From the human T2T-CHM13v2.0 reference genome, Homo sapiens: 64,000 nucleotides of DNA. A program made the translations under genes and the position numbers. Below, one piece after another: positions 3,171-62,669 of the stretch (position 1 is the first letter of the stretch; each line of letters starts with the position of its first letter). The notes under the pieces are model-generated. The model was not told where the DNA came from. It saw only the letters and a list, made by a program, of their open reading frames with translations, and made no database searches. The stretch lies in assembly GCF_009914755.1 (NCBI RefSeq), contig NC_060926.1, one strand, 5' to 3'.

Positions 3171-4620
3171 CTGAACCTATCTCCAGAAAGCCTGTACTAA
3201 TTAACATTTCTAATGGCAGTATATGATAGTGCTCATACTTTACACATTCAACAGTACTGAGTGCTACCATTCTTCTTTATAGTTTTTTACCAAAAAATTT
3301 TCATGACATTTGAAAACATCTACTATTGTAATTTATTTGCATTTTTTGTGAAAATAATCCACAATTTTCCTTGTGTTTTGTTATTTTGTATCCTTATTGG
3401 TTGTTTTTAACTTCTGTTTTTGGCTTAGTTTGGTATTTGCCCATGTGTCTATTGGGATTTTTACTATATTCTTATTAATTTATAAGAACAATTTTCTATT
3501 TAAAGTATTGATCCTTTCTCGGCCTTAACTGTTATGTAAACATTTCACCTATTTTTTGTCTTTCAACCTTTTATTTATGATGATTTTTTCCCCAAAGAAT
3601 ATTTTGTTTTTTTGTGCAGTCATTTCTTCTTCATTTTTTTTTTTGGCTTTACAAATTTGTGTTTTGCATAGAAAGGACTACAAGAGTATATGGTTATATG
3701 TCTATTTCCACATATTTCCTACTAGAATCTTTTTTTTTAACTTTAGATTTTGATTCATGTGATCTTTTCACACAGTAAATTGGTAATTATACATTAAAGT
3801 TTAATTTGGACTCTCTTCAAACCCACTGAGCTTTTATATTTGAACAGTTTTATTTAACATCTATATAAGTCTTAATATTTTGCAGAATAAGCCACCTCTT
3901 GTCACCCTAATTTTCTTCCAGATGAATTTAGAATCATTTAGACTTATATTGTTTTTGTCTATTTATTACCCACACTACATAAAAAGACTCATTGATATTT
4001 TCCTTGAATTTATAGATTAATAAATTTGAAAGTCTTAATTACAATGAGAGAAGCTTATCTAAGTACATGACAATCCTTTCAATTATTTTAGCTTTCTTTT
4101 ATATCCTAAAGTTTTCTTCAGAAGTCTCATATGATAAAGTTATTATTAGATAATTTACTTTATTTTTATTGCAATTGTGAATCAGATTTTCTAATTTTTT
4201 TCATGTATAAGATAATTATTAGTGTTGGCACATGTAATTTAAAATTTGTACCTTTTGAACTCTAATTGAATTTATTTTTAGTTGATTCTCTTTCAATATA
4301 TGAACAAGTTCTTTCATTATATGAAGAAGGTCATTATATTAAGGATCATTTACTCCATTGTTTTTATATATGTACCTCTCTGTTTTCTTATCTAATTGCA
4401 TTGGCCAACAACACTAAAAACAGGGATGATACAGGCACACTCTTTTTTTTTTCCTGACTTAATAGGAATGCTTTCAGAATCATTTTTGTTAGTGTGAAAT
4501 TCTCACCTAAATTTTAATACATTTTCTTATATCAATTTTGGTATGACTTCTGGTGATAATATGCTTTTCCAAAAATATTGATTTTAAATGCTTACTCTGT
4601 TATGTGGCACTCAATTTTAT
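3170..4620 (-). mobile_element. Old, degraded L1M(E)-type fragment
   Basis: T-rich sequence with degenerate antisense L1 ORF2/3'-end motifs; boundaries approximate. Confidence 0.55.
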
Positions 4621-8100: not shown

Positions 8101-8859
8101 AAAGAATAGGGGCTACATACAATAACCAAAATTGTATTAATTTTATATTCATTTTAATATACCATTATTCCTTTACATAAAAAATGAATATAAACTAAAA
8201 TGATAATATACATTTCTATATCTCTATTTCAAGAAACTCTTTGACTACCTTTTTAATTCTAAATAAAGGATTTCAACATAAACACTTTATTGGATGTCAA
8301 CATTATCCTTGATAGATTTCTAGGTACTGAGGAAGTTATCAATTATCATACCCAAACTGAAGGACTTTCCAATTGATTACATAAAAGAAAATATAACTTT
8401 TAAAATTCAACAGTAAATAACATAACATCTAAATGAGGTTTTTGACTGGAAAAGCCTAAATCTTACAAAGGGGGGCTAGAAGCTTCAGTTGCTCCCTTTG
8501 TTCTCTGCTAATTTCTTAAGTTAGCTGTAAGTTTTACAGATTTATGTATATTCTACATTAGTCTATAATTTCACCTTTTTAAGTCACAGCATAAATTAGT
8601 ATAATCCATATAATTAAGAATTTATTTTCAAGGATTTATAGTTCTGAGATCATTACTTAACTTGTAGGGTGCTGGAATTAAAGATGACCTGGTTATGGTT
8701 TCCCTTTATTCTCTTGGATTTGGTAATATTCAGCTTCCTCTTATTTACTTATTTTTTTAATTGTTTGCTATTGAATGGGAAGCTTCCCATTATATTGAAT
8801 TTTCTTATTCATCAAACACCTAATGGTAACCAGACTTCCCTTTCTGCCTTAGAGTGTTT

Positions 8860-9181
<322 letters not shown>

Positions 9182-12528: not shown

Positions 12529-13571
12529 GTCTCCACTAGAGACATAATATCATCAAATTGCCAAAAGTGAAAGGGAAGTTTGAAAGCAGCAAGAAAAAAA
12601 CTGAATTGTCATGTCCAAAAGAGCTCTCTTAAGATGAACAGCAGATTTCTCAGTGGAAACTTTAAAAGAGCAAATAAAGTGAAAGTATATATTCAAAATA
12701 CTTAAAGAAAAAAACTGCTGACCAAGAATAATATACCTGGAAAAACTGTCCTTTAAAATTAAGGAAGGATAAAAACTTTCTCATACAAGCAAATGCTGAG
12801 GGAGTTCATCACCACTAGATTTATCTTATAGGAAATGCTAAAGTGAGTTCTTCAAGTTGAAACGAAAGCATGGTAAAGAGCAACACAAGAGCATATGAAA
12901 GCACAAATCTCACTAGTAAAGGTAAATACATGGACAAATAGAGAATACTGTAATACTCTAATAGTATTATATAAATATTTATAATTCTAATATAAAAGTT
13001 AAATGTCAAAATAATTAAGAATAACTAAAATTACAAAAATGTGTTTGTAGAAACACATTATAAAAAGATGTAAATTGTGACATAACAAAAAGTGTGAGGG
13101 AGGTATTAAAAGTGAAGATTTTTGATATATGATTGAAGTTAAGTTGTTATCAGCTTAAAGTAGACTATTATAAGATATTTGTGATTGCCTCATGATAACC
13201 ACAAGGAAAATCCACGTAAAAATACAGAAATAAAAAAGAGAAATCATAGCATATCACAATAAAATATCATCCAATCACAAAAGAAGACAGTTAAGAGAGA
13301 AAAAGACAGAAAAAAAGAATTACAAAACAGAAAAATTTAACAAAAAGGCAATAGTAAGTCATTACCTACCAATGATTATTTCAAATACAAATGGATTAAA
13401 CTTCCCAATCAAAAGACCTACAATGGCTGCATAGATTTATGAAAACAAGATCCAGTTATATGCTGTCTCCAGATACTCGTTTCAGATTTAAGAAAACATA
13501 GTTTGAAAGTTAATTGATAAAAAAGATACATTTTGTAGAAATGGTAACCAAAAGAGAGCAATGGGGCTATA

Positions 13572-16337: not shown

Positions 16338-19300
16338 TTATGCAGTTTCTTATTAGAGGAAGGCTTGAACTACACTTTAATCCAATAGATCTAACAGATA
16401 TTTATAGAACAGTTCATCCAACAGCAACAAAATACATATTCTTCTCAAATCACATGAAACACTCTCCAGGATAGATCACATGTTAGGCCACCAAACAAGT
16501 TTTAACAAATTTAAGAAGATTAAAATCATATCGAGTATGTTTTCTGTTCATGATGACATGAAACTAGAAGTCAATAAGAATAACCTTGAACAACTCATAA
16601 TTATGTGGAAATTAAACAACATGCTCCTGAACAGGCAATGGGTCAAAGAAGAAATTATACGGAAAAACAGAAAATATTTTGGGATCAATGACAATGGAAA
16701 CACAAGATAACAAATAGTATGGAATGTAGAAAAAGAAGCCCTGAGAGAAAAATTTATAGTAATAAATGCCTACATTAAAGAAAGAAGGAAAATCTCAAAT
16801 AAACAACCTAATATTACATCTTAGAGATTAGAAAAAGAAGAACAGAATATCCCCAAACTTTGCAGAAGGAAGAAAATAACAAAGATAATGATAGAAATAA
16901 ACAAAGCAAATACTAAAAAGTTGTTTTTTTGAAAAGATAAAATCGAAAAACCTTTAACTAGACTAACCAAGGGAAAAAAGACAACTCAAACAATATCTGA
17001 AATGAAAGAAGGGAGACTAACACTGATAACACATAAATACAAGGAATCATAAACTATTAATGTGAACAACCATACACCATCAAATTGAATAACCTAGAAG
17101 GAATGAACTAATCTTTAGAAACATGCAACCTACCAAGACTAAATCAAGAAATATTACATCTGAACAAACCAATACTGGATAAAGAAAATAGATCAGTAAT
17201 AAATTAAGTCTCCTAACCAAAAAAAAAAAAAAAGGAAAAGGTCACTGGTGAATTCTATTTAAAGAAGTAATATGAATTCTTCTCAAATTCTTCCAAAAAA
17301 TTGAAAAGGAGGTCAAATTCATTTTATGAGGCCAGTATTATACTGATATGAAAACCCTAAGAGTATGCTACCAGAAAAGAAAACTGCAGGCCAATATTCT
17401 TGATGAACATAGATCCAAAAATTCACAACAATATATTAGCAAACTGAATTCCCTAGCACATTTAAAACATCATTCACCATGATTACTTGGGATTTATCTG
17501 AGGGATGCAAAAATGGTTAAACATACATAAATCAATAAATGTGATATGCTACATTAACAAAATAAGAACAAAAATCATATGATCATCTTACTAGATGCAG
17601 ACAAAGCATTTGATAAAATTCAGCATATGTTCATAATAAAATCTCAACAAAGCAGATATGGAAGGAATGTACCTTAACAAAATAAAGCCATATATGACAA
17701 GCCCACGGCTAACATTATGCAAAAACTGAAAAGTTGGGAGCTTTTCTTCTAAGATCAGGAACAAGACAAGGATATCGACTGTTACCACTTCTTTTTGACA
17801 TAGTACTAGAAATCCCATCCATAGCAATTAGGCAGGAAAAAGAAATAAAATACATCCATGTAAGAAAGCAAGAAATAAAATTATCTCTGTTTGCTAATGA
17901 CATGATCTTTATATGTAGAAAACCCTGAACACTCTACTGAGAACTGTTAAAACTGATACATAAATTCAGTAAAGTTGCAGTTTGCAAAATCAACATAGAA
18001 AAATCAGTAGCATTTCTATACATTAACAATGAGGTATCCAACAAAGAAATTAAGAAATTAATCCTATTTAAAACAGCATCAAAATAAATAAATAAAATAC
18101 TTTGAAGTAAATTTAACCAGGAAAGTTGAAGATCTGTACACTGAAAACTATAAGTTGATTTAAAAAAACTGAGGAAGACACAAATAAATTGTAATATATT
18201 TCATGTTCATGTGTTGGAAGAATTAATATTGTTAAAATGTCCATACTACCCAAAATAATCTACAGATTCAATGCAATCCCTATCAAAATTCTAATGTCAG
18301 TTTTCACAGAAATAGTAAAAAATCCTAACATTTGAATAAAATAAAAAAGATGCTAAATGGCCAAAGCAATCTGAGCAAAAAGAACAAAGCTAGAGGTGCA
18401 ATACTCTGTCATTTCAAAATATAAAGCTATGCTATTGGCATAAACACAGATATATTGGCTAATGGAAAAGGATAAAAAGCCCAGAAATAAACCCAATTAT
18501 TTATAGTCAATTGATTTTCAGCAAAGGTGCAAAGAATAAACAATGGGGGAAAGGACGATCTCTTCAATAAATGGTGTTGGGAAAACTGAATATTCCTTAT
18601 GCAAAAGAATGAAATTGGGCCCTTTCTCATACCATATGTTTATAAAACCAAACAAGTAAAAGACTTAAATATAAGAAATGAAACTATAAAGCTACTAGAA
18701 GAAAACATAAAAGAAAAGCTGTATGACATTTATCTGGGCAAGGATTTCTTGGCTAGGACTCTAAAAGCACAGGTAACAAAAGACAATAAGAGACAAGTTG
18801 GATTAGATCAAACTAAAAATGTTCTTTACAGCAAACGAAGCAATAACAGAGTGGAGAGAGAGATCATGGATTGAAATAAAATATCTGCAAACCATACATC
18901 TGATAAAGGGCTAATATCCAACATTATACATAAAAAGCTCAAGCAACTCAACACCTAGAAAATCAATAAACCAATTGTAGAATGGGCAAATAATCTGAAC
19001 AGACATTTCTCAAAAGAAGAGATATGAATGGCCAATAGATATATTAAAAAATGCTCAACATCTCTAATCATCAGAAAAATGCAAATTAAAATCCCAATGA
19101 AATATTACCTCACACCTCCTAGAATGGCTGTTATCAAAAAGATGAATGATAACAAGTGTTGATGAGGATGTGGAGAAATAGGAACCCTTATACATTGTTA
19201 GTGAAAATGTAAATTAGTACAGCTGTTTGAGAAAAATAGCATGGAAGTTCCCAAAACAAATACAATTACCATATAATTCAGCAATTCCACTTCTAGGTAT

Positions 19301-30395: not shown

Positions 30396-31474
30396 CTAGT
30401 ATTCAAAAGAAAGAAAAGCATGATTAGGATTAGTAAGATGTTAAATAGGCAACATGAAAGAAATGCCATGCAGACATAAATAAATTAGAAAAGCCGCCCT
30501 TAAATATCTAAGACATCAAACCAACCAGCCGACTCATGTTTATTAAATGCCTACTCTACACTCAGCAGTGTGCCAAGCAAGACAAAATAAGACATGAACT
30601 CTGTGATCACCAGGCTTACAAATTACATGATTATCACACAATAAAATTGTTAGCAAAATATAAGACAAAATAACTAAGATAATATAATAGCTTAAATAAA
30701 TGTAAAATAAATAAAAATAATAAACCAAAACCTGTTATTGATAAGGTAAACTTGTAAAATCTGTACACTCTGGAAAAAAAAGAAATGTATAAACATAAAT
30801 GAAAAATATATATTTATATACATTTAAATGTTCATGATCCTATTATTACCAGCATTAAAGATTCCCCCATAGAGAAACTATTGGTGTATATCAGGTAGGT
30901 GGAATTATGACTGGACATCATTTTAATTTAATTTAATTATTTTCTTTTCTTATTCTCTTTTTTTGAGACATTCTCCACAAAAGGATTGAGAATCTTTAAA
31001 TGGTTTAAATCCTTTAGATTTGGCTGGTTCTACGAAATAAGAGCAATCGTTTTAAATTTATTATTATTACTCTAAATACTTTATATGTAAGCCTTTGACT
31101 AAATATATATAGTGCTGGCCTCAGTTAAGACAAAAATTAGGAACAGTTTTTCTTTAATCCTTTCTTTATTTCTGCTTTTCAGCATTTGTACTGCTATTGA
31201 TCACCAGTTTGTCTTTGCCACTCCAGTTTTCATCCAGGGCAATTCCTGTGGCATTTAACACTCTCCAGATTTTCTTATTTACTTAATCTTTCAAAACCTA
31301 CCTGTCATCTTACACTTCAGCTTGAGCACCCATTCAAGTACAAATGTGTTAAAGATTAACCTGTTAGGGAAGGAGCACTGGGATCCTTCTTTTCTGCAAT
31401 GTATTAAGCAGGTTCTCAAGATGCTTTAAAATAGAGAAATACTAAGGATCTCTGACTACTAATCAGATCATCTA

Positions 31475-31650
31475 GGGAGAAGGTTTGCAAACATTTTTAT
31501 AAATATTTTTAGGCTTTGTGGGTTATATCTCCGTTGCAACTATTCAACTCTGCCATGGTAGTCATGGGTCATACATAAACAAACTGGTATGGCTGTGTTC
31601 CAAGAACATTTTTACAAAAACAGGCTGGGGTTTGTTGACCTTTGGTCCAG
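31475..31650. mobile_element. hAT-Charlie MITE (MER58-like)
   Basis: aaatattttaggctttgtggg...gttgcaactattcaactctgcc...ggctgtgttccaa motifs. Confidence 0.7.
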
Positions 31651-32869
31651 AGCAATGATTATTTGGAGTTCATGGACCTGTAGAGGTTTCCTGGGGGCAT
31701 GAAATTATATAACAAACATTATGGTTGTGCTGTCTTTCCGGAAAGACAATTCTAACTTTCATCAGATTCTTACTGTCTATGTGACCTCAAAAAAGATTAG
31801 GAGGAATAGGAATAGAGAATGAAGTTCAAAGTAGCCAGCTCTTAATAGAGCCTACCTTTTCATGCTCATTTCCTGCTGCCCTCCCTACTATGTTTATCAC
31901 GTAGGCACTCTGATACATCTAGTCACTGACCAAGCACACCTTGCACAATCTATTCTGTGCCTCCCTACCATGTGGTATCACTGCCTTGAATGCCTATCTG
32001 CCTATGATTTGGGGCTTACTCTTCAGTCATGAAATGTCTGAAATGTCACCTCCTTGTGATGTCTTCCCAGACTTCCCCGGATAGCCACTCCCTACTGTAT
32101 ATTCCTGTATCATTATGTGCCCTTGTCTGTCTCTCTTGTAACCATTGACCCTACTCACTCTTTGGGGACTGGGGTCTATGTACCACTGTACTCTGTGTTT
32201 TTTATATCACAACACCTGACACATAGTTGGTGTTTAAAATGTTTTTCTAAAAAATGTGAGTAATGATGGAATCATGGGTCTCCGAGAAAGACAGGCACCT
32301 ATTGGTCTGATGAGAAGCCAGTTGGGAAAGCTAAAGAGCCTAAGGACTCAAACAAGCTGACTACAATATGCCTCAAATGCATTATTTCATTATTTCATTT
32401 ATCCTTCAAAATAGCCCTGCGGCATGAATAAATGTCTCTTTTTGCATGGTTAACAAATGTAACTAAATAGACATTTGCCTCTCAAAATATACTAAACTAT
32501 TCTCCTGCATCCAATTCACCTGTAATACAGATAAAGAACAAAGAGCAAACAGAGTTAAATAGTGGGCTGGCTTAATCACTGAAGGAAGTGGTTTTGTAGG
32601 GGAAAGTTGTGATAGATTGTAACATTCTATTAATGCTCAAAAAATTAAGTTAATGTCAATGAATTCTAATACCACCTTTCTGCACAAAATGAAACTTGTA
32701 ATTTTCAACTTGTAGATAGAATATTTTTGAATTGTGCTTATGAACTTTTTTGTATAATCATGATCTTTCTTTTATACTTGGAAACCGTTATACACTGGAT
32801 AATTAAAATAGCAGAGATTGCAGTCATAATTAGGTTTGTAGGGATAACAGTGAAGATTTGGTAGGCTGA

Positions 32870-33290
<421 letters not shown>

Positions 33291-34151
33291 TGGACTAATC
33301 TCCGTGTTAAATTGCTCAGAGAAGGTAAGGTAGGGAGGCAGTTAAGTAAACAAATAAGTAAAATACAATATAATGAGGATTTTAGGTGTCTGAACAGAGA
33401 GAGAATATCCAGTTATGTCTCCTGGTGGACGGACAAGGCAACTTTAAATTGAGCCTTAAAGGACAGATAGGTGTTTGTCTGCTATACAAACGGGTTAGGG
33501 TCGGGACAGGGCAGGGGAAGCATTCCAGAACAGAGGCATAAAATAGCAGGTATAAATCTGGAGAAGAAATTTTAGAGGAGTACCAACACATGAGGATATG
33601 GACTAATTACAGAAAATAGAGTTGTTGTCCTCCATGTGTGTTACAAAGTTGCTGGTTTAATACAATCCTTAAAGCTAGGTTATGGTAGTTGTTATTCATT
33701 ATAACTTGTTTGTCTCTGCTAATTGAGTATCTTTTCAGGCACTCTGCAGCCTAAGTGCAAATTAAGTAAACTCTCTGAGCTTTAGTTTTCTCAAATATAA
33801 TTTAGTTATAATTCCACTTACTTTGCAATGTTATTTTAAAGGTGAAATTAAATGTGATGGCTGATGCTGTCTCACTTACCTATCTTTTCTAATGCTCCTT
33901 ACCCAGGTAGTTTCTTAAACAAATATTATTTGAACACCTGATATAAGTAGGTCCTTGATTACTTATGTATGAGAGATGATGTTAGGAACAATAGTTTCCC
34001 CTTTCACTTGGACTTCCTAGCACAGGGAAGATTTCCATTTAATATGAAAAAAGTCACTCATTTGGATCATTCTATTGTTTGACAATATTAGATAAAGGCA
34101 GGATTACTGTGATTAACTTATTCCCTTGTTAAACAATATGCACTGAAATAC

Positions 34152-34645
34152 TGTGTGTGTATATATATATATATAGAGAGAGAGTATGCATATATATACT
34201 AATATGTACAGTAAATGAAATAATATATATACTATACTATATATGCATATTTTATATATAGTCTTTCATATTATGTATATATTAATATATAATAGTATAT
34301 ACTAATTAGTATTATACTTTTTTAGTAATATACTAGTATATACTAATGAGTATTATACTATTTTTAGTAATATACTATTTAATTAATGCTATAATTAGTA
34401 TTTATATATTAGTATGCATATATACCATTAGTATATATAATATGCATATATACTATTAGTATATGTAATATGCATATATATACTATTAGTGTATATAATA
34501 TGCATATATATACCATATATGCATACTATATATAGTATATATGCATACTGTATATAGTATGTAAATGCATACTATATAGTATACATATGCATATATACAT
34601 ATATGCATATGTATATATGTATATGTATGTACACACACATACATA
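34152..34645. repeat. AT-rich (TA)n / TATGCA low-complexity repeat
   Basis: Repeated atatgcatatatactattagt units ending ~120 bp from the exon 21 donor. Confidence 0.9.
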
Positions 34646-34749
34646 AACAGCCTATGTATTTATGTAAACAGAAACAACTCATAATTTCTACATACCCATT
34701 GTTTTTATATTTTAAACCCCATTAAAAAATAAGAACATTATAAAGTTTA

Positions 34750-34884
<135 letters not shown>

Positions 34885-53154: not shown

Positions 53155-53310
<156 letters not shown>

Positions 53311-56300
53311 CTAGAAAGGAATTCACCACCCCACCAGGTAGTTCATTTAGAGTTCATTCAAATATGATATTTAAGCCTTATTTAATAATCAGACTCATGC
53401 AAAGTATTATGAAAAAAGATTAATAGTATGATGGCCATAAAAAATGTATAAACACATATTGAGGTCAAGTAACCTTAAATGTATCTATACTTGATCTTTC
53501 TATCTACACCATCCTGTAAAATAATAAACTTTATTATGTTTATTATACTAACAAGTACGTGGCCAAAATTAGATAAGGTAATATATTGATGTTAACTATC
53601 ACTTTTGGAAAGTATTGACCACATCTTATTTTTTAAATTTTTAATATAAATTTATGGACACTGACAATCATTATTTGAGGACAACCTATACCCTATTTGC
53701 AATATAATACAAGTGTCAAATTACTAATGCCTGATCATTGAAAGCTCAGATCAAATAGTTGGCAAAAAACTTATTGATAGTTAAAATTTTTTAAAAAGAT
53801 AAGTGCAAGATAAAGTCCAAATGTATTTTTTATTATCTCTTGAATTTAAATATATGTAGCAGGATGATATAGATAGAAGTTCTTTGATCAAGACCACAAA
53901 ATCAAATACGGTTTTGAAATCAAAATGCCAATGACCATACCAACACCACCCATTTTGTATATAACATTTTAGTATATAGTAGAAAAGATCAAACAGTATT
54001 ATTTATAATGTCAAGAAAGTGGCTACTAAAGTAAGCACCACATGCAAACTCTGAAACAAAGATCGAAGAAAATTAAACATGGCAGACTTACACATGGAAT
54101 AATGAATTCATTGTCATTATGATCATATAAGTGATCATAACGCAAATAGGTTTTTCTCACCCAGAGCTTTATGAGTAACCATGATGTTTACACATACACA
54201 CACACACACGAAGAAATCTTTACAAAAAATACATACAGCAACTGTAGCAAAACTCTGTCAAATTTCCCAAATATTGTTTTATAAAGGAGTAAAGCAGCAT
54301 ATCAATGGAAGAGTTAATTTTTCATTCTCATTTGCTAAATGACATGTGAATATTGAAAGCTACTAGTTACTACAACACAATTCTCTTATTAAGTTACAAC
54401 TTTATCTTTTTTAGAGTAGTTCAAGCAAGTGCAAGTGCTAAAAATAATAAAATACTTATTTCAGATAAATTGATTCTCAATCTATGAATTTGTATTAATA
54501 TGATAGCCCAATCTAAAGGTTTGACTTTTAGAGATTGACTTGGAAGCTAGAAGTATTCTTGATGGGTACCACATTAAATTCTCAATGCTATTATTATCAC
54601 CTAGTATACAACATCATAAAAATGGCATTGATAAAGTATTGTACATAAGGAATGATGTAAGCAGACAATGTCTTTCTTATAACTGGAGTAAATAATTATG
54701 AACAACCTATTAAGAGAACTCCTCCAATCTATGTTGGCCTAGAGGCATTATTCCCACCAGGTCCAGGAGTTTGATAACAGTTTCAGTTATGAAAGTATCA
54801 GTACAAAATTTCACTCAAAAACATGTTATTTAAACTGATTGAATTCATCTAAATTAGTTTAATTTAAAATAAGATAATAGAAATTAATTATAACTGAATA
54901 TTCTATAAAACTATAGAATAGGCTTTAAAGTATAAACTATAGAATGAGTTTTAAAATATATAAGTTTTAAAATACAGATTAATCCAGGAAACGATGTTGG
55001 ATAAACTTATAATTACTAATATGTATTTTGTGCCAATTGCCACAAAATCCAAAGTACCATATTTAGAAGACTACAGTTTTAATGGCTTCAATTCCTGACC
55101 TCTCGGCTGCACGTGAACTATCACCAGAGAAGTGAAAGACAAGGCCCTATTATTCTGTGAAGTTAAGACCAGGCCCTTCATTTCTGAAAAAAGAATTATT
55201 GGCCTGGGTTTTGAGGTAAAGCAGTGAGAGGAATTGCTGATAGAAAGAATACAAAGCACCCCCCTGCTATTAGACACAATATTAACAATAGGAAATAGTT
55301 ATAATGGTTTTTCTCTGAGCTGGTAACAACTTTTAAATAAAATGATTCTTATTTGCAGAATTCTGACTTTAGCTAAATTCATGAAAGCATCTTCAAACAT
55401 CAATAATTGGTTTTCTCACTGTTTAAGAGAGCATTAACAAAGATTTATGCCAAATTAGATTATGAGCAAGTAAAAATTCACGTGATTTTATATAGTGTAT
55501 CTTGTTGTTGAAACTTTTTTTCATATGCAGGTTTTATGTTTTTTTAATGGTCAATTGAATTCAGCTTGGCACAGAATTTTACATCATAAAGTTATTCAAT
55601 ATTATTGTTCAATGGGACAGAAATTATCAAAATATTTAACATGAACTATTATTAATTAATTTGTATTTACAGACAAATTATTATGGCTAATAGATTCTTA
55701 GACATTCAATGTTTTCTTGGGAATGCATTAAGTATTCAAACAGTAACTATTTCCATACTGTATATAAAATTAAATGTTTATAAGCATGCTTTAGCAATAT
55801 AGACAGTTCTAGTCAATTCAGCCTTTGAAATCTATACTTGCTACAGTATAAGCTTCTTTAGCAGATTTCTAAGAGAATACCTTTATATAGAAAGGCTGAT
55901 ATATATAATAAAGTTTTTTTTTCCTGCGGTGAAATATATTGAATTCTCACAGTAGGCATCACCATATTTAAGTACTTTGAATATATGTTTTTTACTATAC
56001 AAGGAAGATCATATCAATTATTTGTATTATTTTATATGATTAATTTCTATATTATCTTCATTTCTTTAAACTCAATCATCTGTTGTTTAGTTTTCCATGT
56101 AATTTTGGAAATGAAAGAATGACTATATTAGAGAAGTGAAATAAATGCTTTAGTATGAAAGAAATTTCTTTTGCTATTATAAATAGGACCTTCTGTAATT
56201 TTCACATGGATTTGATTTCTAATAAAAGGGAAGTATCAATTTTTTTTATCATTGGCAGTCTAGTTATAAATAAAGTAAATATAAATATAAGCATAGGATC

Positions 56301-56520
56301 AAGAAGGTGGACTCACTAGTATTAGGAATCAGAAGTGTACCATAATTAGCATTCCTGCCTTTTTATTGAATAATATGATATTGACTGTGCCTTCTAAAAG
56401 TGTTTTAAAAATATGAAAGTGATATAGTTGACTCAAACATTTTAAATGTATAATAGTATTTACAGTGCAAAATAAAAGTTCCCTCCACTATCTCCTTGAT
56501 TCAACCCCCTTGAGGTAATC

Positions 56521-56543
56521 GAGAGAGAGAAAAAGAGAGAGAG

Positions 56544-56569
<26 letters not shown>
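56521..56569. repeat. (GA)n microsatellite
   Basis: Interrupted GA dinucleotide run. Confidence 0.9.
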
Positions 56570-56574
<5 letters not shown>

Positions 56575-59500
56575 CTTTCCATATTTTTCAGTGTGCATCC
56601 ATACAACACTATAGCTGTGAAACAATCCTTATCTTGATTGTAAACTTATGTAGCTATTTAAGATGCTCCTTTTCAATTACTGAAAATATGTCCAAATTAA
56701 AAGCTTTATTATTCTTCATGGTTTTCCCTTTGATTGCCTTGAAGCTGTGTTTTCTACTATACTGCTTGAGTAGAAATTGTGTTAAATATATGTATCATAT
56801 TAGAACATGTCCTAAGTTGTTCACTTACAAATTTATCACTGGCATTTCCTAAGATAAACATTAACGATGTAAGCCTATTTCATGCTATCATGGATGATGG
56901 TTAATGCTAGTTAGTTATTTATTGTTCCAAGAGGTGTGAGGTAGGAGTGTCTAATGACTTGATAATCTAACGCTCAAAAGAAGAAACTATCAAACACAGC
57001 AGCACTGTACAAAACACAGAACTCAACAAAAACCTTACTCAAAGAGAATGATTGATGCTGAAAAGAACTGAAAAATGTTACATTTCAAGTACATACTATA
57101 AACTGTTTGCTTCACACAACAAAAAAAAGATATTCTTTAAGGAGCAGAGCCTAGAATGGTTATTTCACCTGAGCCTTAAAATACTCACAAAAGACAGTAA
57201 GAAAGTTGAGAGAAGCAAATCAAAAGGAGGAGATGGGTATAAAAGAGAAGAAAAATTATGGCAGACAGTGGTAAACTAAGCTCCATTATCTGTTAATAAG
57301 CAAGAAAGACATTTTAAAATTAGTTTCAAGTTACTATTATCCATCTTTTAATTTAATTGTGTAGTTTTACGGTCAATATCTATAATTGTGTTCTTGAATC
57401 ATTAAGGAGTAAAATAGTAAATTTCAATTAAAGGATCAAAGGATCCTTTGAGAAGAAATCCACACATAGTTACTATGTGGCATAAGAGTCCAATATTTTC
57501 CAAGTTTCCCATTATGTTACAGGACAACTAGATGTTTAAATACTCTCTTCTGGTGTAGAACCAAAATAACCTTTCTTCTCTCTTGCAATCATTCAGGGCC
57601 TTTATTTTTTTCCTTCTGGAGAAATGTGAACATTATCCTCTTATAGAGTTTTTAAAATTGGAGGTCATTAATATTATTGATATTACTATTAGTGCTTTTC
57701 ATCTTGAGTGTAATCACATTTCTTAACATGATTTAGATTTCTGGGCCCCTTGAGGTCTCTACAATCTTTTTTTTTTGATATGAAATTTCTCAAGATTCTT
57801 TTTAAAAGGTAATGCCTCAAGTTAAAAAATCACTGAAGCTCAGGAATTTCAGGAAAAAAATGGAAATAATTAAAAAATACTCCAGATATTATTGATCAGT
57901 GGAAAACTCAACTGTATTTTCTTCTGTTGTCTAAGTTTTAATGTTACTTCCACTAATTTAGCAGAAAATTGTCAGTTTATTAACTAGTTGCAATAAATTC
58001 TGGGCTCACATTCTAATTATGGGCAACTAAAACTTTAGCTCTTTTTTTAAAAAAAGGGCAAGAAAACCAATTTTTTTTCCTTTCCTATTTTTCTTTGTCT
58101 ATTGCTAGCAGAGAAATATTGTGTAGGCTCTGGGAGGAATAGCTACTTATTCAGCGTGAAACACACAGTTCCATCACAAGGTCAACATGATATATAGTAT
58201 TCTGTTGGTGAAATAATGAGGTCAAATCTCAGCCACCACCAGAGAAATTCAGAGTAAAACCAGTGATTTCACGGAGACCTCTTCTTTTTCTCAGAATCTT
58301 CTACCTACGGCACTTTCTATCCAATAACATGAAAACTTACGTGACTAAATGATAAGATATGAATATAAAGAAATCATATAAAAGCAACAACAGTTGGCCA
58401 TGTAAGAAGGCTAGACTGGCTACAGATTTCTCAGCCAGGTCCTATAGTATCATCTTGAAGCATCTTTCTAATGAAAAGAAGAGAAGCAAAGAGCTAGGAG
58501 TGTAAAGTGGCCATTGATATTCAAGGGCTCTCTCTGTGCTCTGTCACAGAACTGCTACACTGTTTGCAGAGAAAGCAGCTGGAATACAGTGGGTCAAGTC
58601 AGAGTGTCTTAAAGTCTTTAGAAGCAAACATTTAAACAATTTTGCTATTTATGCCAGCTTAAAAAAATGCAACAAGTAGGTAAAGAAGGATTGGAACCTT
58701 AGCAAACATAAAGGTAAAGTGTAGATACGCAGACTCAAGCTTCGTAAATATTATCTATAATTTTGAAACAAACAAGAATGACAAACACAAAGTAAGCTAC
58801 CTAGATATCTGAATCATTTCTGTTAACTACTAATACTACCCACAATGAAGGAGGGCAAGGAAAAGTGAATTTTAATGAATGGAATAATTACTAGCTTTTT
58901 AAACATGTGGATTTCTAATATTGAAAATATAAATAGAAATTTTACATGGATAAAATAACTATATCCTTTATGTAGGCAGCTTTTGCTAAAGTGCCATATT
59001 TCAAGTCATTCTTAACTGAATATTCAGTTTTTTTCTTAAGAGGATGACCATTCATTAACATGTACCTCATCTTTTCTAACAGCTTGGTAAAAAAGTAATA
59101 AGAATTTATGAATTCAAAACATATATATGCATATGTTTATATGTCTATGCATGTATATATATTTCTAGAAATAGCTTTCTCAAAAATTATATGTTTTATC
59201 TATACCTATATAGATAATATTGGGTGTATATGCATCCTTATTTAGGCTCTAGTTGAAGAAAATTCACCATATTCTGGAATAAAATAGTTTTCTATGAGAA
59301 TATTGCCTCTAAATCCCCACCAAATTTGAAATAGAAAAATATATCTTTTACTTAGGCCACCTTTAAAATTATCTTCAAATAAACTGGAACACTAAAATAA
59401 CTAATTTTTCATTTGAAACTGTTAGCAATATTATCTCTAAGGTGTGTCAATTTCAGGATAAAGTTTTGCTTTCATCATTGCACAATAGATAACAATAATA

Positions 59501-60633
59501 CAAACATCTCAACAATGACAGAGAAATTCAAAATATGAACTAGATTATAAAAAGGAGTCAAGATTCTTATTGGCAGAGATTCCTGCCCCCATCCTAGAAC
59601 TATTAAAGTTCAGTCATTCAACAAAGTATGCTAAAATTAAAATATATCTTAGTATGTATTTTAATACATTTTAGAAATATTCAATAAGGCAATACATATT
59701 AATCTGTATCTAATTTCAGTAAAAGTGTTCTATGTGTTATTGATAGATAGGATTTATAATATGCTCTATCTAAACCTCTTAGTTTCTAGAGACTGATCTG
59801 ATTATGTATATAATCAGAAACTTATTCTTATCAATGAGTAATATTACTTCTGGAATAAAATTAAACATTTTGAACACTTATCACTTATTCATTCATAGGC
59901 AAGGCCTATCAACTTTTAACTGATGCATTTTATATAGGAGCAAATAAAATCAAATGTTAATTACTGAGTTGATTTAAAAAAATAAAGTCCCATAACTAAC
60001 AGTGCATAAAACCATTTCAAAATGTATTCAAAGTTTATACTAGAAGCAGGGTACTTTGGCTTTGACCCCAACTTTCTAGATGTGTACTAAGAAAGCATGA
60101 GTCTCAATTTGCTTATCCATAAATACATAACCAGAATTATTAAATACAAAGCTAGAATTACAATGATCTTTTCCTGCTCTGAGATTTTATATTTATGCCA
60201 GAAACACTTCTTCCACAATTTTTTAGAGTTTTGATCTACTTAATTTAAATGTGACAATTTAATGTGATATACATCTCTCCATATTTTTATGTAGATTAAA
60301 TCAGGAAGGGAAGTTGATAGAGGTTTTCAAATTAAATGTAGCTTCAATGGCTACTGTTACATTCTGCATTTTACTTTTATAATCAATTCAATAAAAATCT
60401 ACAGATCATGCACTTGAAATCACTTAAGCACATGAAGGTTACATCAAGAAGTCATCAAGAGAATCACAAAAAAATAATCAAATTGCCCTGGTGACATGCT
60501 GTGATGTCACTTTATCTATTGAACAACTGTATATGTTTCTACTTTCTTGCAGTGGGTCAGGCAGAAAGGTTTTGTAGCTGAACAGCATGCAAGACATTGA
60601 AAAAATATCGTATGTATGATTTTTTTAGGTAAC

Positions 60634-60715
60634 CTGTGTAAAAGTGGTGACATATGTCTCTGCCTGGTTAAAAGCACAGAGCTGCATCCTTGATTGATCC
60701 AGTTTGATATTACCC
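60634..60715 (-). other. Candidate poison (stop-containing) cassette exon upstream of exon 18
   Basis: cctaac-cttcttctcacag|GGG TAA: branch point, polypyrimidine tract, AG and an immediate in-frame stop. Donor uncertain (CAG|gttacc). Confidence 0.55.
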
Positions 60716-62669
60716 CTGTGAGAAGAAGGTTAGGTACTGAATTTTAGAAATGCAGCATGATGAAAGAGTTTAGTCAACTGTGTTTTAAAATGTTTAAAGT
60801 CATATACCTGTAAGTAGAAATTAGTTACATATTTGAAAGTACATGCTATATACTCAACGTTAAGCAATATATTTGAATCACAGTACTAAGATTAAATGTC
60901 ATTCAACAGAGACTTAAAAACAATCAATTAAACAGTTACATAATTCTACTCTACTATTTAAAAATTGAATTTAAATACTATAATGTGCTAATGCAATGTT
61001 TTGCATTCTATTTTTCCTTAAATGCAAGCAACATTTAAATATAAGTGATTCTCAGTATAGGGGGTGAGGTGGCAGTAAGAGTATGCAGCTTTAAAAAGCA
61101 TATTCTAAAATTAGCATTTCTTGATTGACTTATTTTTATTTAATTAATTTTGACATTTTAAACAGCATTGCAAAAAAGTGAAGTTTCCAAATTTATCAAA
61201 ATATAAAGAATAAGACACATTGATTTGAATATGTCAGACAAATATTTCATTGTTTTTAGGCACGTAAACAAATCCAATGAAGATGGAAAGATTTTTCAAA
61301 TTCTTTGGAAACAACCTGAAAAAAACAAATGGTCTAAGTGCAATTCTACAGAAGAGTGCTTTTAAAAAAATCTATGCATAAAATATAGAATCAAATGCCA
61401 ATTTTACGAAACAGCATAACTGTAACTAATCCCTAAATCTTTCAAAGTCAAATGCATTTTTAAAAGATTATTATATTTTCTAAAGTGTAGTAATAAGCAG
61501 AAGGTAAATCTAAAACTTTGATTAAAAATCTAAAGAGAGAAAGTCTTGATAACAGTGTAATTAAAACCACCGCATAGTAAAAGGACATTAAATATTTAAT
61601 TTGGGAACTGCAAGTATTGAAACAACTTTTTATCAGGTCAACAAAATGACTACATTTCATAATAATAAGCATATTTAAGTATCTCCAAAGATAATGACTT
61701 TGTAAACTGAACACTGAATAGATGAATGGGTGGATAGATGAATGAATGAGTGAATCAGGTGAACAATATGAATGCTTGTTCCTCTGCCTGAGATTTCCTT
61801 CTGTACCACATCTGCCCAGTGAAATTTTCTCCATACTGTAAGGTCTGGTCTAAGTGCCACCTCCTTTCATGTGAAGTCAGCCAGATACAGCCCCTTACTC
61901 AATGCATCCTCAATGGACTAGTTTAGTGTCCTGTTACGGATTGTGCTTTGCTTTGTTCTGTGTTATAATTTTTTGTATATTTACCTAAGGTGCAAGCTAT
62001 TAGAGTGTATACTTTTTGTTGTCAATGATCAATCACCCTTTACCTTTGAAGTACATGAAGTTTTTAGTGTGGTTTTTGGGGGACTCAATATTTATAGGGG
62101 GCCAAAAATATTTCATGAGTGTAATTTAGGAGAGAAAAACTCTATGCCTATTATAATTCTGGGCAGAGAGTCATAGAAAATTTTAATGTGTTCTCTACTA
62201 TGCACAAATAAAAGAAATGAATAAAATATCTGTGTTCAGTAACATAATATTTATGTAATTAAGAAATAAGATTATACAGGTAGAATAAAGTTTATATTTT
62301 ACTTATGCCTTTGTATTATGTTGAGCCACATGAAATTTCTAGTTTTTGCAGATTAAAAATGGTTGGATATTTAGTTTTTTATTATTTAACTTAAAATATT
62401 CTTATTTTCATATATATTTTCTAATTCAATAAGTAAAAATTAACTTTTGTTTTTTGGTAATTTTATACAATATGTTTCAAAGTATAACATTACAATTGAT
62501 GCATATTATTCCAAATTATGCCTAGTAACTGCATCTCTTAAAATAGAAAATTACCATCCTTCAATTCTTTTGACATTTTCATAAAGGAATAATAATAATT
62601 AGTAGCAGTAGTAATATTGGAGAAGCATGCCTGACCTTGTTAATACCTTCCAAGGTATCTTACCAAGAG

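What the first reader, a model, noticed from the sequence alone, without database searches (positions are those of the whole stretch)
60400..60760. Candidate poison exon with RBFOX motifs deep in the intron upstream of exon 18
Seen (minus strand): tcagtacCTAACcttcttctcacAG|GGG TAA. Exon 18 begins in phase 0, so inclusion stops translation after one codon. Possible donors are CAG|gttacc (82 nt) or CAG|gcagag (52 nt). TGCATG occurs at 60586-60591 and 60407-60412, in non-repeat sequence. Known: a stop-containing exon '16A' in the DII-III loop has been described for rodent Nav1.7, paralogous to Nav1.2/1.3 exon 17A. Inference: this is the human counterpart, an NMD rheostat for Nav1.7 dosage and a possible splice-switching analgesic target or site of deep-intronic variants.
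Basis: partly seen in the sequence, partly recalled or inferred. Interest (0 to 1): 0.8.

Follow-up and report, generated by a model that had tools for sequence, protein, structure and literature searches.

The report
Conserved poison exon in human SCN9A

Summary
On the minus strand, window 60715-60634 is an 82-nt cassette. It has a 3' splice site (CTTCTCACAG|G), a TAA at exon bases 4-6 and a weak GT donor (CAG|GTTACC). It lies in SCN9A intron 17 (53311-73821). Exon 17 ends and exon 18 begins in phase 0, so inclusion reads Gly-stop.

Splice-like signals alone mean little: 107 equally good decoys sit on the sense strand of the window. The decisive evidence is paralogy. This is the only collinear non-repeat block that SCN9A intron 17 shares with the same intron of SCN2A and SCN3A (E 1e-23 and 9e-29). 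It aligns end to end with their 84-nt block at 80.5% identity, higher than the flanking coding exons. That SCN2A block has exactly the coordinates of the published human SCN2A "17A" poison exon.

Mouse Scn9a "E17a" lies in the orthologous intron, carries a TAA stop, and is NOVA-dependent and NMD-sensitive (Eom 2013).

Both TGCATG sites are exactly conserved in all three paralogs, along with a third GCATG. RBFOX control is therefore plausible but untested. The 52-nt GC-donor version is not conserved. I found no evidence of human transcripts and had no mouse sequence. The feature is already known and of moderate interest.

The parts
60634..60715 (-). 82-nt poison (NMD) cassette exon of SCN9A. 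It is the human counterpart of mouse E17a / rodent '16A' and the paralog of SCN2A/SCN3A 17A. In T2T coordinates it is chr2:166716634-166716715.
   Evidence: Sequence. Aligned end to end with the 84-nt SCN2A/SCN3A exon at 66/82 identity. The 2-nt length difference and stops in frame exclude a shared coding frame.
60710..60712 (-). In-frame TAA stop, the second codon of the exon. It is conserved in SCN2A and SCN3A (GAG TAA).
   Evidence: Exon 17 ends in phase 0 in all three genes.
60716..60740 (-). 3' splice site region: pyrimidine tract plus CACAG. The run CTTCTCACAG|G (60725-60715) is invariant in the three paralogs. The CTAAC at 60733-60729 is specific to SCN9A.
   Evidence: The 25 nt upstream are 16/21 identical to SCN2A and SCN3A.
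60628..60636 (-). Weak 5' splice site CAG|GTTACC, 6 of 9 consensus positions by a recalled consensus. CAGGTTA is invariant in the three paralogs.
60586..60591 (-). TGCATG no. 1, starting at intron base +43. The hexamer is conserved exactly in SCN2A and SCN3A.
   Evidence: The longest non-repeat exact SCN2A/SCN3A match outside the exon is 18 nt and ends in this TGCATG.
60495..60499 (-). It is homologous to GCATG at +149 in SCN2A and +150 in SCN3A.
   Evidence: SCN9A and SCN3A share ACATCACAGCAT.
60407..60412 (-). TGCATG no. 3 (GCATG at +223). It is an isolated six-base island of full conservation in the three paralogs.
60375..60736 (-). Whole paralog-conserved block: the exon, about 20 nt upstream and about 260 nt of downstream intron.
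   Evidence: blastn; nhmmer.
53190..53310 (-). SCN9A exon 18, the downstream constitutive exon, starting in phase 0. It lies 7,323 nt downstream of the poison exon.
   Evidence: Hub annotation.

Best explanation
Window 60715-60634 (minus strand) is the human SCN9A copy of an old, conserved poison cassette exon. The same exon is called 17A in SCN2A and SCN3A, and 16A or E17a in rodent Scn9a.

When it is spliced in between exons 17 and 18, the reading frame runs ...EYSKV-Gly-TAA, inside the domain II-III loop. The stop lies 76 nt before the exon's own donor and ahead of ten further junctions. The mRNA is therefore a predicted target of nonsense-mediated decay, and any protein that escapes decay would be a two-domain stump.

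The exon has a weak donor that has been kept weak in all three paralogs, so inclusion should depend on bound activators. In mouse brain the shown activator is NOVA. The three paralog-conserved GCAUG elements at +44, +135 and +223 of the downstream intron predict, by the position rule for RBFOX (recalled), that RBFOX proteins also promote inclusion.

The net effect is a splicing-coupled dosage control that holds Nav1.7 output down where the activators are present.

Shown here: the sequence anatomy, the phase, paralog conservation with exact boundaries, and identity of the SCN2A partner with the published human 17A exon. Shown by others, in mouse: inclusion, NOVA dependence and NMD sensitivity. 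Inferred: use of the exon in human cells, the RBFOX role, and orthology at base level.
For: (1) Anatomy and phase.

(2) In about 20.5 kb of intron 17, the only collinear non-repeat match to the same intron of the paralogs is this block. Against SCN2A it is 68.7% over 265 nt (E 1.2e-23); against SCN3A it is 65.6% over 393 nt (E 9.5e-29).

(3) Identity peaks on the exon: 66/82 = 80.5% to each paralog. The first 100 nt downstream show 55-64%, the 100 nt upstream 51-57%, and coding exons 17 and 18 show 64-69%.

(4) The AG, the TAA and CAG|GTTA are invariant. The GC donor is not.

(5) The lengths are 82 against 84 nt, with no shared open frame, so the conservation is non-coding.

(6) The SCN2A block lies at intron +3103 to +3186 and is 84 nt. 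This equals the human SCN2A poison exon in Felker et al., supplementary file 2, named 17A in their text.

(7) Eom et al. 2013, passages and the Figure 4 legend: mouse Scn9a E17a has a TAA stop. The longer isoform is lost in the Nova double knock-out. It rises with emetine (about 75%) and with Upf1 siRNA. Scn9a mRNA rises 2.9-fold in the knock-out.

(8) Their forward primer hits human exon 17 with 1 mismatch. The reverse primer aligns 16/20 to human exon 18. The mouse exon is therefore in the same intron.

(9) Three GCATG lie within 223-255 nt downstream in each paralog, where 0.15-0.36 are expected (Poisson P 5e-4 to 6e-3; the three genes are not independent). Of the 9 fully conserved runs of 6 nt or more in the alignment, 2 are exactly TGCATG.

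(10) There is no Rfam match (0 at E<=1) and no other copy in the genome.
Against: - No human transcript, junction read or CLIP datum was available. The RefSeq Select transcript listed by the hub lacks the exon, and I could not see the other 8 RefSeq models.
- No mouse or other vertebrate sequence could be fetched. Orthology rests on the shared intron, the TAA and paralogy.
- Kerr et al. 2008 could not be read. Only its title was seen, in a reference list. Its abstract as I recall it gives about 60% identity between rodent 16A and 17A, lower than the 80.5% found here in human.
- The donor is weak, and the CTAAC branch point, 15 nt from the exon, is not conserved.
- TGCATG is not enriched in the window as a whole.
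- YCAY density next to the exon is unremarkable: 3 in the 100 nt upstream, against a 95th percentile of 4.
- A long-read study of human dorsal root ganglia did not detect SCN9A at usable depth.
- Eom's text is [12 protein letters not shown] about whether NOVA suppresses or promotes E17a. The RT-PCR described says it promotes inclusion.
Confidence: 0.85

Rival explanations
1. The exon's main product is a stable truncated two-domain (DI-DII) Nav1.7 protein with a function of its own, as the title of Kerr et al. 2008 predicts. On this view it is not primarily an NMD switch.
For: The title of Kerr et al. [quoted passage not shown] The stop at codon 2 of the exon would end the protein cleanly after exon 17.
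Against: In mouse neurons the E17a isoform rises on emetine and on Upf1 knock-down, and loss of inclusion raises Scn9a mRNA and protein. The stop satisfies the 50-55 nt rule for NMD. The conserved part is a non-coding exon body plus downstream intron, which fits regulation of splicing rather than a protein product.
Confidence: 0.08
2. The block is a conserved intronic element of another kind, such as an enhancer, a splicing silencer for the neighbouring exons, or part of the antisense lncRNA SCN1A-AS1. On this view it is no longer spliced as an exon in human SCN9A.
For: No human expression evidence was available. SCN1A-AS1 spans this region on the plus strand (hub table). Conservation extends about 260 nt beyond the exon.
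Against: Conservation peaks exactly between an invariant AG and an invariant GT and includes the stop codon. The SCN2A copy is a catalogued human/mouse poison exon. None of the SCN1A-AS1 exons listed by the hub lies here. There is no Rfam family match. All splice signals are intact in the human SCN9A copy.
Confidence: 0.05
3. It is a chance pseudo-exon: splice-like motifs and two TGCATG that happen to lie together in a long AT-rich intron.
For: 107 sense and 73 antisense decoys with equal or better crude signals exist in the window. The TGCATG count in the window is within the shuffle range.
Against: The paralog matches have E 1e-23 and 9e-29, with boundaries, stop codon and hexamers aligned. 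nhmmer scores for the profile are 115-134 bits on the exon part.
Confidence: 0.01
4. The exon used is the 52-nt version ending at the GC donor CAG|GCAGAG (60664).
For: The motif is present. GC donors do occur.
Against: SCN2A and SCN3A read CAGCCAGAG at that place, with no GC or GT donor. The catalogued SCN2A exon is the 84-nt form that ends at the aligned GT donor.
Confidence: 0.03

Closest known systems
Mouse/rat Scn9a exon 16A (Kerr, Holmes and Wynick 2008), also called E17a (Eom et al. 2013, eLife, PMC3552424)
   Same: Same gene. Same intron, by primer mapping. TAA premature stop. Described as conserved. An NMD-coupled dosage control.
   Different: This is the human copy. No base-level alignment to the mouse exon could be made here, and human inclusion and regulators are untested. 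Eom reports NOVA, not RBFOX, as the regulator.
Human SCN2A poison exon 17A (hg38 chr2:165357774-165357857; Felker et al. 2023, PMC9882217) and the identical SCN3A 17A block
   Same: Homologous sequence: 80.5% identity over the exon. Same flanking exons and phase. Same AG, TAA and CAG|GTTA. The same three downstream GCATG.
   Different: 82 nt against 84 nt. The upstream intron is 13.1 kb, against 3.1 kb (SCN2A) and 4.7 kb (SCN3A). The SCN9A branch-point region has diverged. SCN2A and SCN3A have GCATG|GTCAGG at the middle site, a possible extra donor that SCN9A lacks.
SCN1A poison exon 20N and SCN8A exon 18N
   Same: Same principle: a conserved stop-containing alternative exon that sets sodium-channel output. 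20N is the target of splice-modulating oligonucleotides (reviews seen).
   Different: They lie in a different intron (domain III) and are not homologous. No 20N-like non-repeat block was found in SCN9A intron 21. No 17A-like block was found in intron 17 of SCN1A or the equivalent intron of SCN8A.

Membership tests
Poison (NMD-inducing) cassette exon | Bounded by a 3' and a 5' splice site on the gene's sense strand | tested here: met
   AG at 60717-60716 with a pyrimidine tract, and GT at 60633-60632. Both are invariant in three paralogs. The donor is weak: 6/9 by a recalled consensus.
Poison (NMD-inducing) cassette exon | Inclusion brings a stop codon into the reading frame | tested here: met
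   Exon 17 ends and exon 18 starts in phase 0. TAA is codon 2 of the exon.
Poison (NMD-inducing) cassette exon | The stop lies more than 50-55 nt upstream of a downstream exon junction | tested here: met
   76 nt to the exon's own donor, with ten annotated exons downstream (hub table). The rule itself is established knowledge, recalled.
Poison (NMD-inducing) cassette exon | The exon is actually included in transcripts, and the isoform rises when NMD is blocked | not testable with these tools
   Shown for mouse E17a with emetine and Upf1 siRNA. I found no human data.
Orthologue of rodent Scn9a 16A/E17a | Lies in the intron between the exons orthologous to human exons 17 and 18 | tested here: met
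   Eom's primers: the forward primer hits human exon 17 with 1 mismatch. The reverse primer aligns 16/20 to human exon 18.
Orthologue of rodent Scn9a 16A/E17a | Base-level similarity to the mouse exon (AM905322) | not testable with these tools
   No mouse sequence is held in any collection, and the figure carrying the sequence is not held.
Paralog of SCN2A/SCN3A exon 17A | Significant sequence homology with matching exon boundaries in the equivalent intron | tested here: met
   Coordinates equal the published human SCN2A exon.
RBFOX-activated exon | (U)GCAUG within about 300 nt downstream of the exon, and conserved | tested here: met
   GCATG at +44, +135 and +223, with counterparts in SCN2A (+64, +149, +255) and SCN3A (+58, +150, +240).
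RBFOX-activated exon | RBFOX binding, and a splicing change when RBFOX is perturbed | not testable with these tools
   No CLIP or knock-down data were at hand. Eom et al. do not link Rbfox to this exon.
NOVA-regulated exon | A YCAY cluster near the exon | tested here: inconclusive
   3 YCAY in the 100 nt upstream (95th percentile is 4) and 2 in the exon. The densest cluster of the intron, 10 per 100 nt, lies 1.05 kb upstream at about 61774-61715. Eom reports a CLIP cluster upstream of the mouse exon.

The most novel reading that the evidence does not exclude
The exon together with its three GCAUG sites is one ancient regulatory module, inherited from the common ancestor of SCN2A, SCN3A and SCN9A and lost from SCN1A. 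Through it, RBFOX acting with NOVA would tune the dose of three sodium channels in concert. In human sensory neurons the module would be idle but intact. An oligonucleotide that raises inclusion would then lower Nav1.7 selectively, and rare variants in 60375-60740 would shift pain sensitivity.
Probability: 0.25. Interest if true: 0.6.

Novelty: already known. Interest (0 to 1): 0.4.

Why it matters
Nav1.7 is a genetically validated pain target for which selective blockers have been hard to make. A natural poison exon offers a gene-specific way to turn its output down by splice switching, mirroring what is done in the opposite direction for SCN1A 20N.

Fixing the human coordinates has practical uses. 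The exon is window 60634-60715, T2T chr2:166716634-166716715, with its three conserved GCAUG sites. These coordinates let deep-intronic variants be read, as was done for a variant 170 bp from SCN2A 17A. They also allow primers, minigenes and oligonucleotides to be designed.

The exon appears neglected for this gene. A 2026 review table of sodium-channel splicing lists no NMD exon and no regulator for Nav1.7. The poison-exon catalogue I could read omits SCN9A (0 hits in 5 supplementary files).

Tried and rejected
- The own-genome DNA search with 231 nt found only the region itself. It was too insensitive for 65-80% paralogs, so I located the paralog exons by protein search and compared the introns directly.
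- nhmmer --max, with a whole-block profile and an exon profile, found nothing at E<=10 in the equivalent introns of SCN1A, SCN8A, SCN5A, SCN10A, SCN4A and SCN7A. There were only 4 weak hits (E 2.6-6.8), elsewhere in SCN2A and SCN9A. SCN11A was not fetched.
- Rows that I set aside as repeats or as non-collinear:
  - the multi-copy Alu-like matches at SCN9A segment 2223-2473;
  - SCN9A 1120-1248 against SCN1A 12545-12675;
  - SCN9A 8928-9045 against SCN1A 1578-1693;
  - SCN9A 18320-18379 against SCN3A 8596-8658 (E 1e-4). None of these three single-copy rows was followed up, and no repeat annotation was checked for them.
- Rfam search: 0 matches.
- The test for a homologue of SCN1A 20N in SCN9A gave only exon and repeat matches.
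- Papers:
  - Kerr 2008 is not held, by DOI or by PMC id.
  - 'exon 16A' with 'Nav1.7' gave 0 papers.
  - One search gave one unrelated paper.
  - The preprint on SCN exon 5 (abstract and outline only) concerns another exon.
  - Passages in PMC12921266, PMC13542418, PMC9543825, PMC5448149 and PMC8383430 gave no human data on this exon.
- No structure prediction or complex prediction was relevant.
Full report
**1. Observation**

Read on the minus strand, the window shows TCAGTACCTAACCTTCTTCTCACAG|GGGTAA.
- The AG is at 60717-60716, the first exon base at 60715 and the TAA at 60712-60710.
- A GT donor, CAG|GTTACC, follows after 82 nt (last exon base 60634).
- A GC donor, CAG|GCAGAG, follows after 52 nt (last exon base 60664).
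- TGCATG lies at 60591-60586 and 60412-60407.

Exon 18 (53190-53310) translates from its first base as [28 protein letters not shown].... I found exon 17 outside the window by fetching the next 20 kb of the assembly. It ends ...SDSDSEYSKV|GTAAGA in phase 0, with its last base at window coordinate 73822. Intron 17 is therefore 53311-73821, or 20,511 nt. The candidate lies 13.1 kb into it, and inclusion would read Gly-stop.

**2. Is it more than chance?**

On the motifs alone it is not. The window holds 47 TGCATG against 38.9 expected, and 11 of 100 shuffles reach 47. I used a crude score of my own: the pyrimidine count at positions -20 to -4, plus matches to a recalled 9-position donor consensus. 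By that score, 107 sense-strand and 73 antisense-strand AG...GT pairs in the window are at least as good. The real exons of the window score no better than the candidate.

**3. Paralog comparison**

No vertebrate genome other than the window's own assembly was available, so I used paralogs. Protein searches with SCN9A exons 17, 18 and 19 located the same exons in SCN2A, SCN3A, SCN1A and the other sodium-channel genes. I fetched the exon 17 to exon 18 segments and compared them with blastn at word size 7.

Apart from the coding exons and multi-copy Alu-like repeats, SCN9A intron 17 shares exactly one collinear block with its paralogs: window 60736-60375.
- Against SCN2A: 68.7% over 265 nt, E 1.2e-23.
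- Against SCN3A: 65.6% over 393 nt, E 9.5e-29.
- The same block links SCN2A and SCN3A: 79% over 371 nt, E 1.3e-80.

Three further single-copy rows (two to SCN1A, one to SCN3A at E 1e-4) are non-collinear or weak. I did not follow them up.

**4. Anatomy from the alignment**

The 82-nt SCN9A exon aligns end to end with an 84-nt block that is identical in SCN2A and SCN3A.
- Identity of SCN9A to each paralog is 66/82 = 80.5%.
- It falls to 55-64% in the first 100 nt downstream and to 51-57% in the 100 nt upstream.
- The neighbouring coding exons 17 and 18 show only 64-69%.

Invariant in all three genes are CTTCTCACAG|G, the TAA, and CAG|GTTA. The GC donor is not conserved (CAGCCAGAG in SCN2A and SCN3A), and neither is the CTAAC. 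The 2-nt length difference and the stops leave no shared open frame, so this is non-coding conservation. Exon 17 ends in phase 0 in SCN2A and SCN3A too, so the TAA is in frame in all three genes.

**5. Link to print**

Felker et al. (PMC9882217) name a '17A' poison exon of human SCN2A in their text. Their supplementary file 2 lists it at hg38 chr2:165357774-165357857. It is 84 nt, of class NMD_in, in an intron that starts at 165354672, which gives offsets +3103 to +3186. My SCN2A block starts 3,103 nt and ends 3,186 nt after exon 17. The partner of the SCN9A candidate is thus the catalogued human SCN2A poison exon, with the same boundaries.

Eom et al. 2013 (PMC3552424; I read passages and the Figure 4 legend) describe mouse Scn9a 'E17a'.
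- It is based on accession AM905322 and called 'previously uncharacterized but conserved'.
- It carries a TAA premature stop.
- It is present in wild-type brain and lost in Nova1/2 double knock-out brain.
- It rises with emetine (about 75%) and with Upf1 siRNA.
- Scn9a mRNA is up 2.9-fold in the knock-out.

Their two primers come from supplementary file 2. The forward primer hits human exon 17 with one mismatch. The reverse primer aligns 16/20 to human exon 18. The mouse exon therefore lies in the orthologous intron.

Of Kerr et al. 2008 I saw only the title, in a reference list. The paper is not held. What I say of its abstract is recalled: the exon 16A naming, human and chicken conservation, and about 60% identity to 17A.

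**6. Regulatory elements**

GCATG occurs at +44, +135 and +223 of the downstream intron in SCN9A. In SCN2A it occurs at +64, +149 and +255, and in SCN3A at +58, +150 and +240. The middle site sits in a homologous context.

The fetched segments hold 14, 7 and 19 GCATG in 21.3, 11.2 and 12.8 kb. Three GCATG in about 230-260 nt is therefore unexpected in each gene (Poisson P 5e-4, 6e-4 and 6e-3), though the genes are homologous and so not independent.

Of the nine fully conserved runs of at least 6 nt in the three-way alignment, two are exactly TGCATG. Between SCN2A and SCN3A, the longest exact non-repeat match outside the exon is 18 nt and ends in the first TGCATG.

By the position rule for RBFOX (recalled), downstream GCAUG promotes inclusion. 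This remains an inference. Eom et al. do not connect Rbfox to this exon, and the papers I searched gave nothing on it (24 papers held the terms, 15 were listed, and I read passages of six of those listed).

NOVA-type YCAY motifs are not enriched right at the exon: 3 in the 100 nt upstream, against a 95th percentile of 4. The densest cluster of the whole intron, 10 per 100 nt, lies 1.05 kb upstream at about 61774-61715.

**7. Distribution**

Profile searches with nhmmer --max found no counterpart at E<=10 in the equivalent introns of SCN1A, SCN8A, SCN5A, SCN10A, SCN4A or SCN7A. SCN11A was not fetched. The element is thus confined to SCN2A, SCN3A and SCN9A, the same three genes named in Kerr's title. 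Because the flanking intron has decayed beyond recognition while the exon keeps 80% identity, it has been under selection in each gene since their duplication. The timing is an inference; I built no tree.

**8. Alternatives**

- An Rfam scan of 59800-61400 gave 0 matches at E<=1.
- The region is single copy in the assembly.
- Tandem repeats are found only at 60120-60160 and 60242-60267.
- None of the SCN1A-AS1 exons listed by the hub lies here.
- A stable truncated two-domain protein is possible, but the mouse NMD data argue against it as the main output.

**9. What is missing**

- I had no human transcript or CLIP evidence.
- I had no mouse sequence.
- I could not see the other 8 RefSeq models or GENCODE.
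- A long-read study of human dorsal root ganglia did not reach SCN9A.
- My searches for SCN9A with 'poison exon', 'splice-switching', and NOVA/cryptic/NMD found only Eom 2013 and reviews citing it. None concerned the human exon.

**10. Verdict**

The feature is real and correctly read, and it is already known as a kind and as a rodent exon.
- exact human boundaries, favouring the 82-nt GT form;
- proof of homology to the catalogued SCN2A 17A exon;
- the three paralog-conserved GCAUG sites;
- its absence from the equivalent intron of SCN1A and five other paralogs (SCN11A not checked).

Interest is moderate. It is useful for Nav1.7 biology and for reading variants, but not surprising.

Noticed in passing
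L004 3634-3745 (SCN2A) and the matching stretch of L006/L007 (SCN3A): SCN2A and SCN3A share a 112-nt perfect match over the 17A poison exon: 24 nt upstream, the 84-nt exon and 4 nt downstream. This is far longer than any exact match in their coding exons 17 and 18 or elsewhere in the 11-13 kb compared; the next longest are 25 nt (Alu) and 18 nt. It reflects either extreme constraint or a short gene conversion.
   Followed up: partly
window 61715-61774 (minus strand): The densest YCAY cluster of SCN9A intron 17, 10 per 100 nt, in a TCAT/CCAC-rich stretch 1.05 kb upstream of the poison exon. It may be a NOVA binding site matching the upstream CLIP cluster reported in mouse, or it may be repeat-derived.
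   Followed up: partly
window 5900-27993 (minus strand): The SCN9A intron between exons 24 and 25 has AT-AC ends: donor AAG|ATAAGT and acceptor ...TTTAC|. AT-AC introns are a known feature of sodium-channel genes (recalled).
   Followed up: no
window 30396-34761 (SCN9A intron 21): No non-repeat block homologous to the SCN1A intron that holds poison exon 20N was found. blastn at word size 7 against 20 kb of SCN1A gave only exon and repeat matches. SCN9A seems to lack a 20N counterpart at this sensitivity.
   Followed up: yes
window 53311-60633; L004/L005; L006/L007: The intron from the poison exon to exon 18 is nearly the same length in the three paralogs: 7,323 nt in SCN9A, 7,286 in SCN2A and 7,240 in SCN3A. 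The upstream part varies from 3.1 to 13.1 kb. (My arithmetic from the coordinates.)
   Followed up: no
L004 about 3890-3900 (SCN2A) and the SCN3A equivalent; window 60490-60499: In SCN2A and SCN3A the middle GCATG reads GCATG|GTCAGG, a possible extra donor that might relate to the SCN3A exon '17B' named in Kerr's abstract (recalled). SCN9A reads GCATGTCACC and has no GT there.
   Followed up: no
PMC3552424, section on Scn9a: Eom et al. describe loss of the E17a isoform in Nova knock-out brain, which means NOVA promotes inclusion. Yet one sentence says the upstream CLIP cluster predicts that NOVA suppresses E17a, and one says SCN9a protein is reduced in the knock-out while the legend says it is reduced in wild type.
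   Followed up: no
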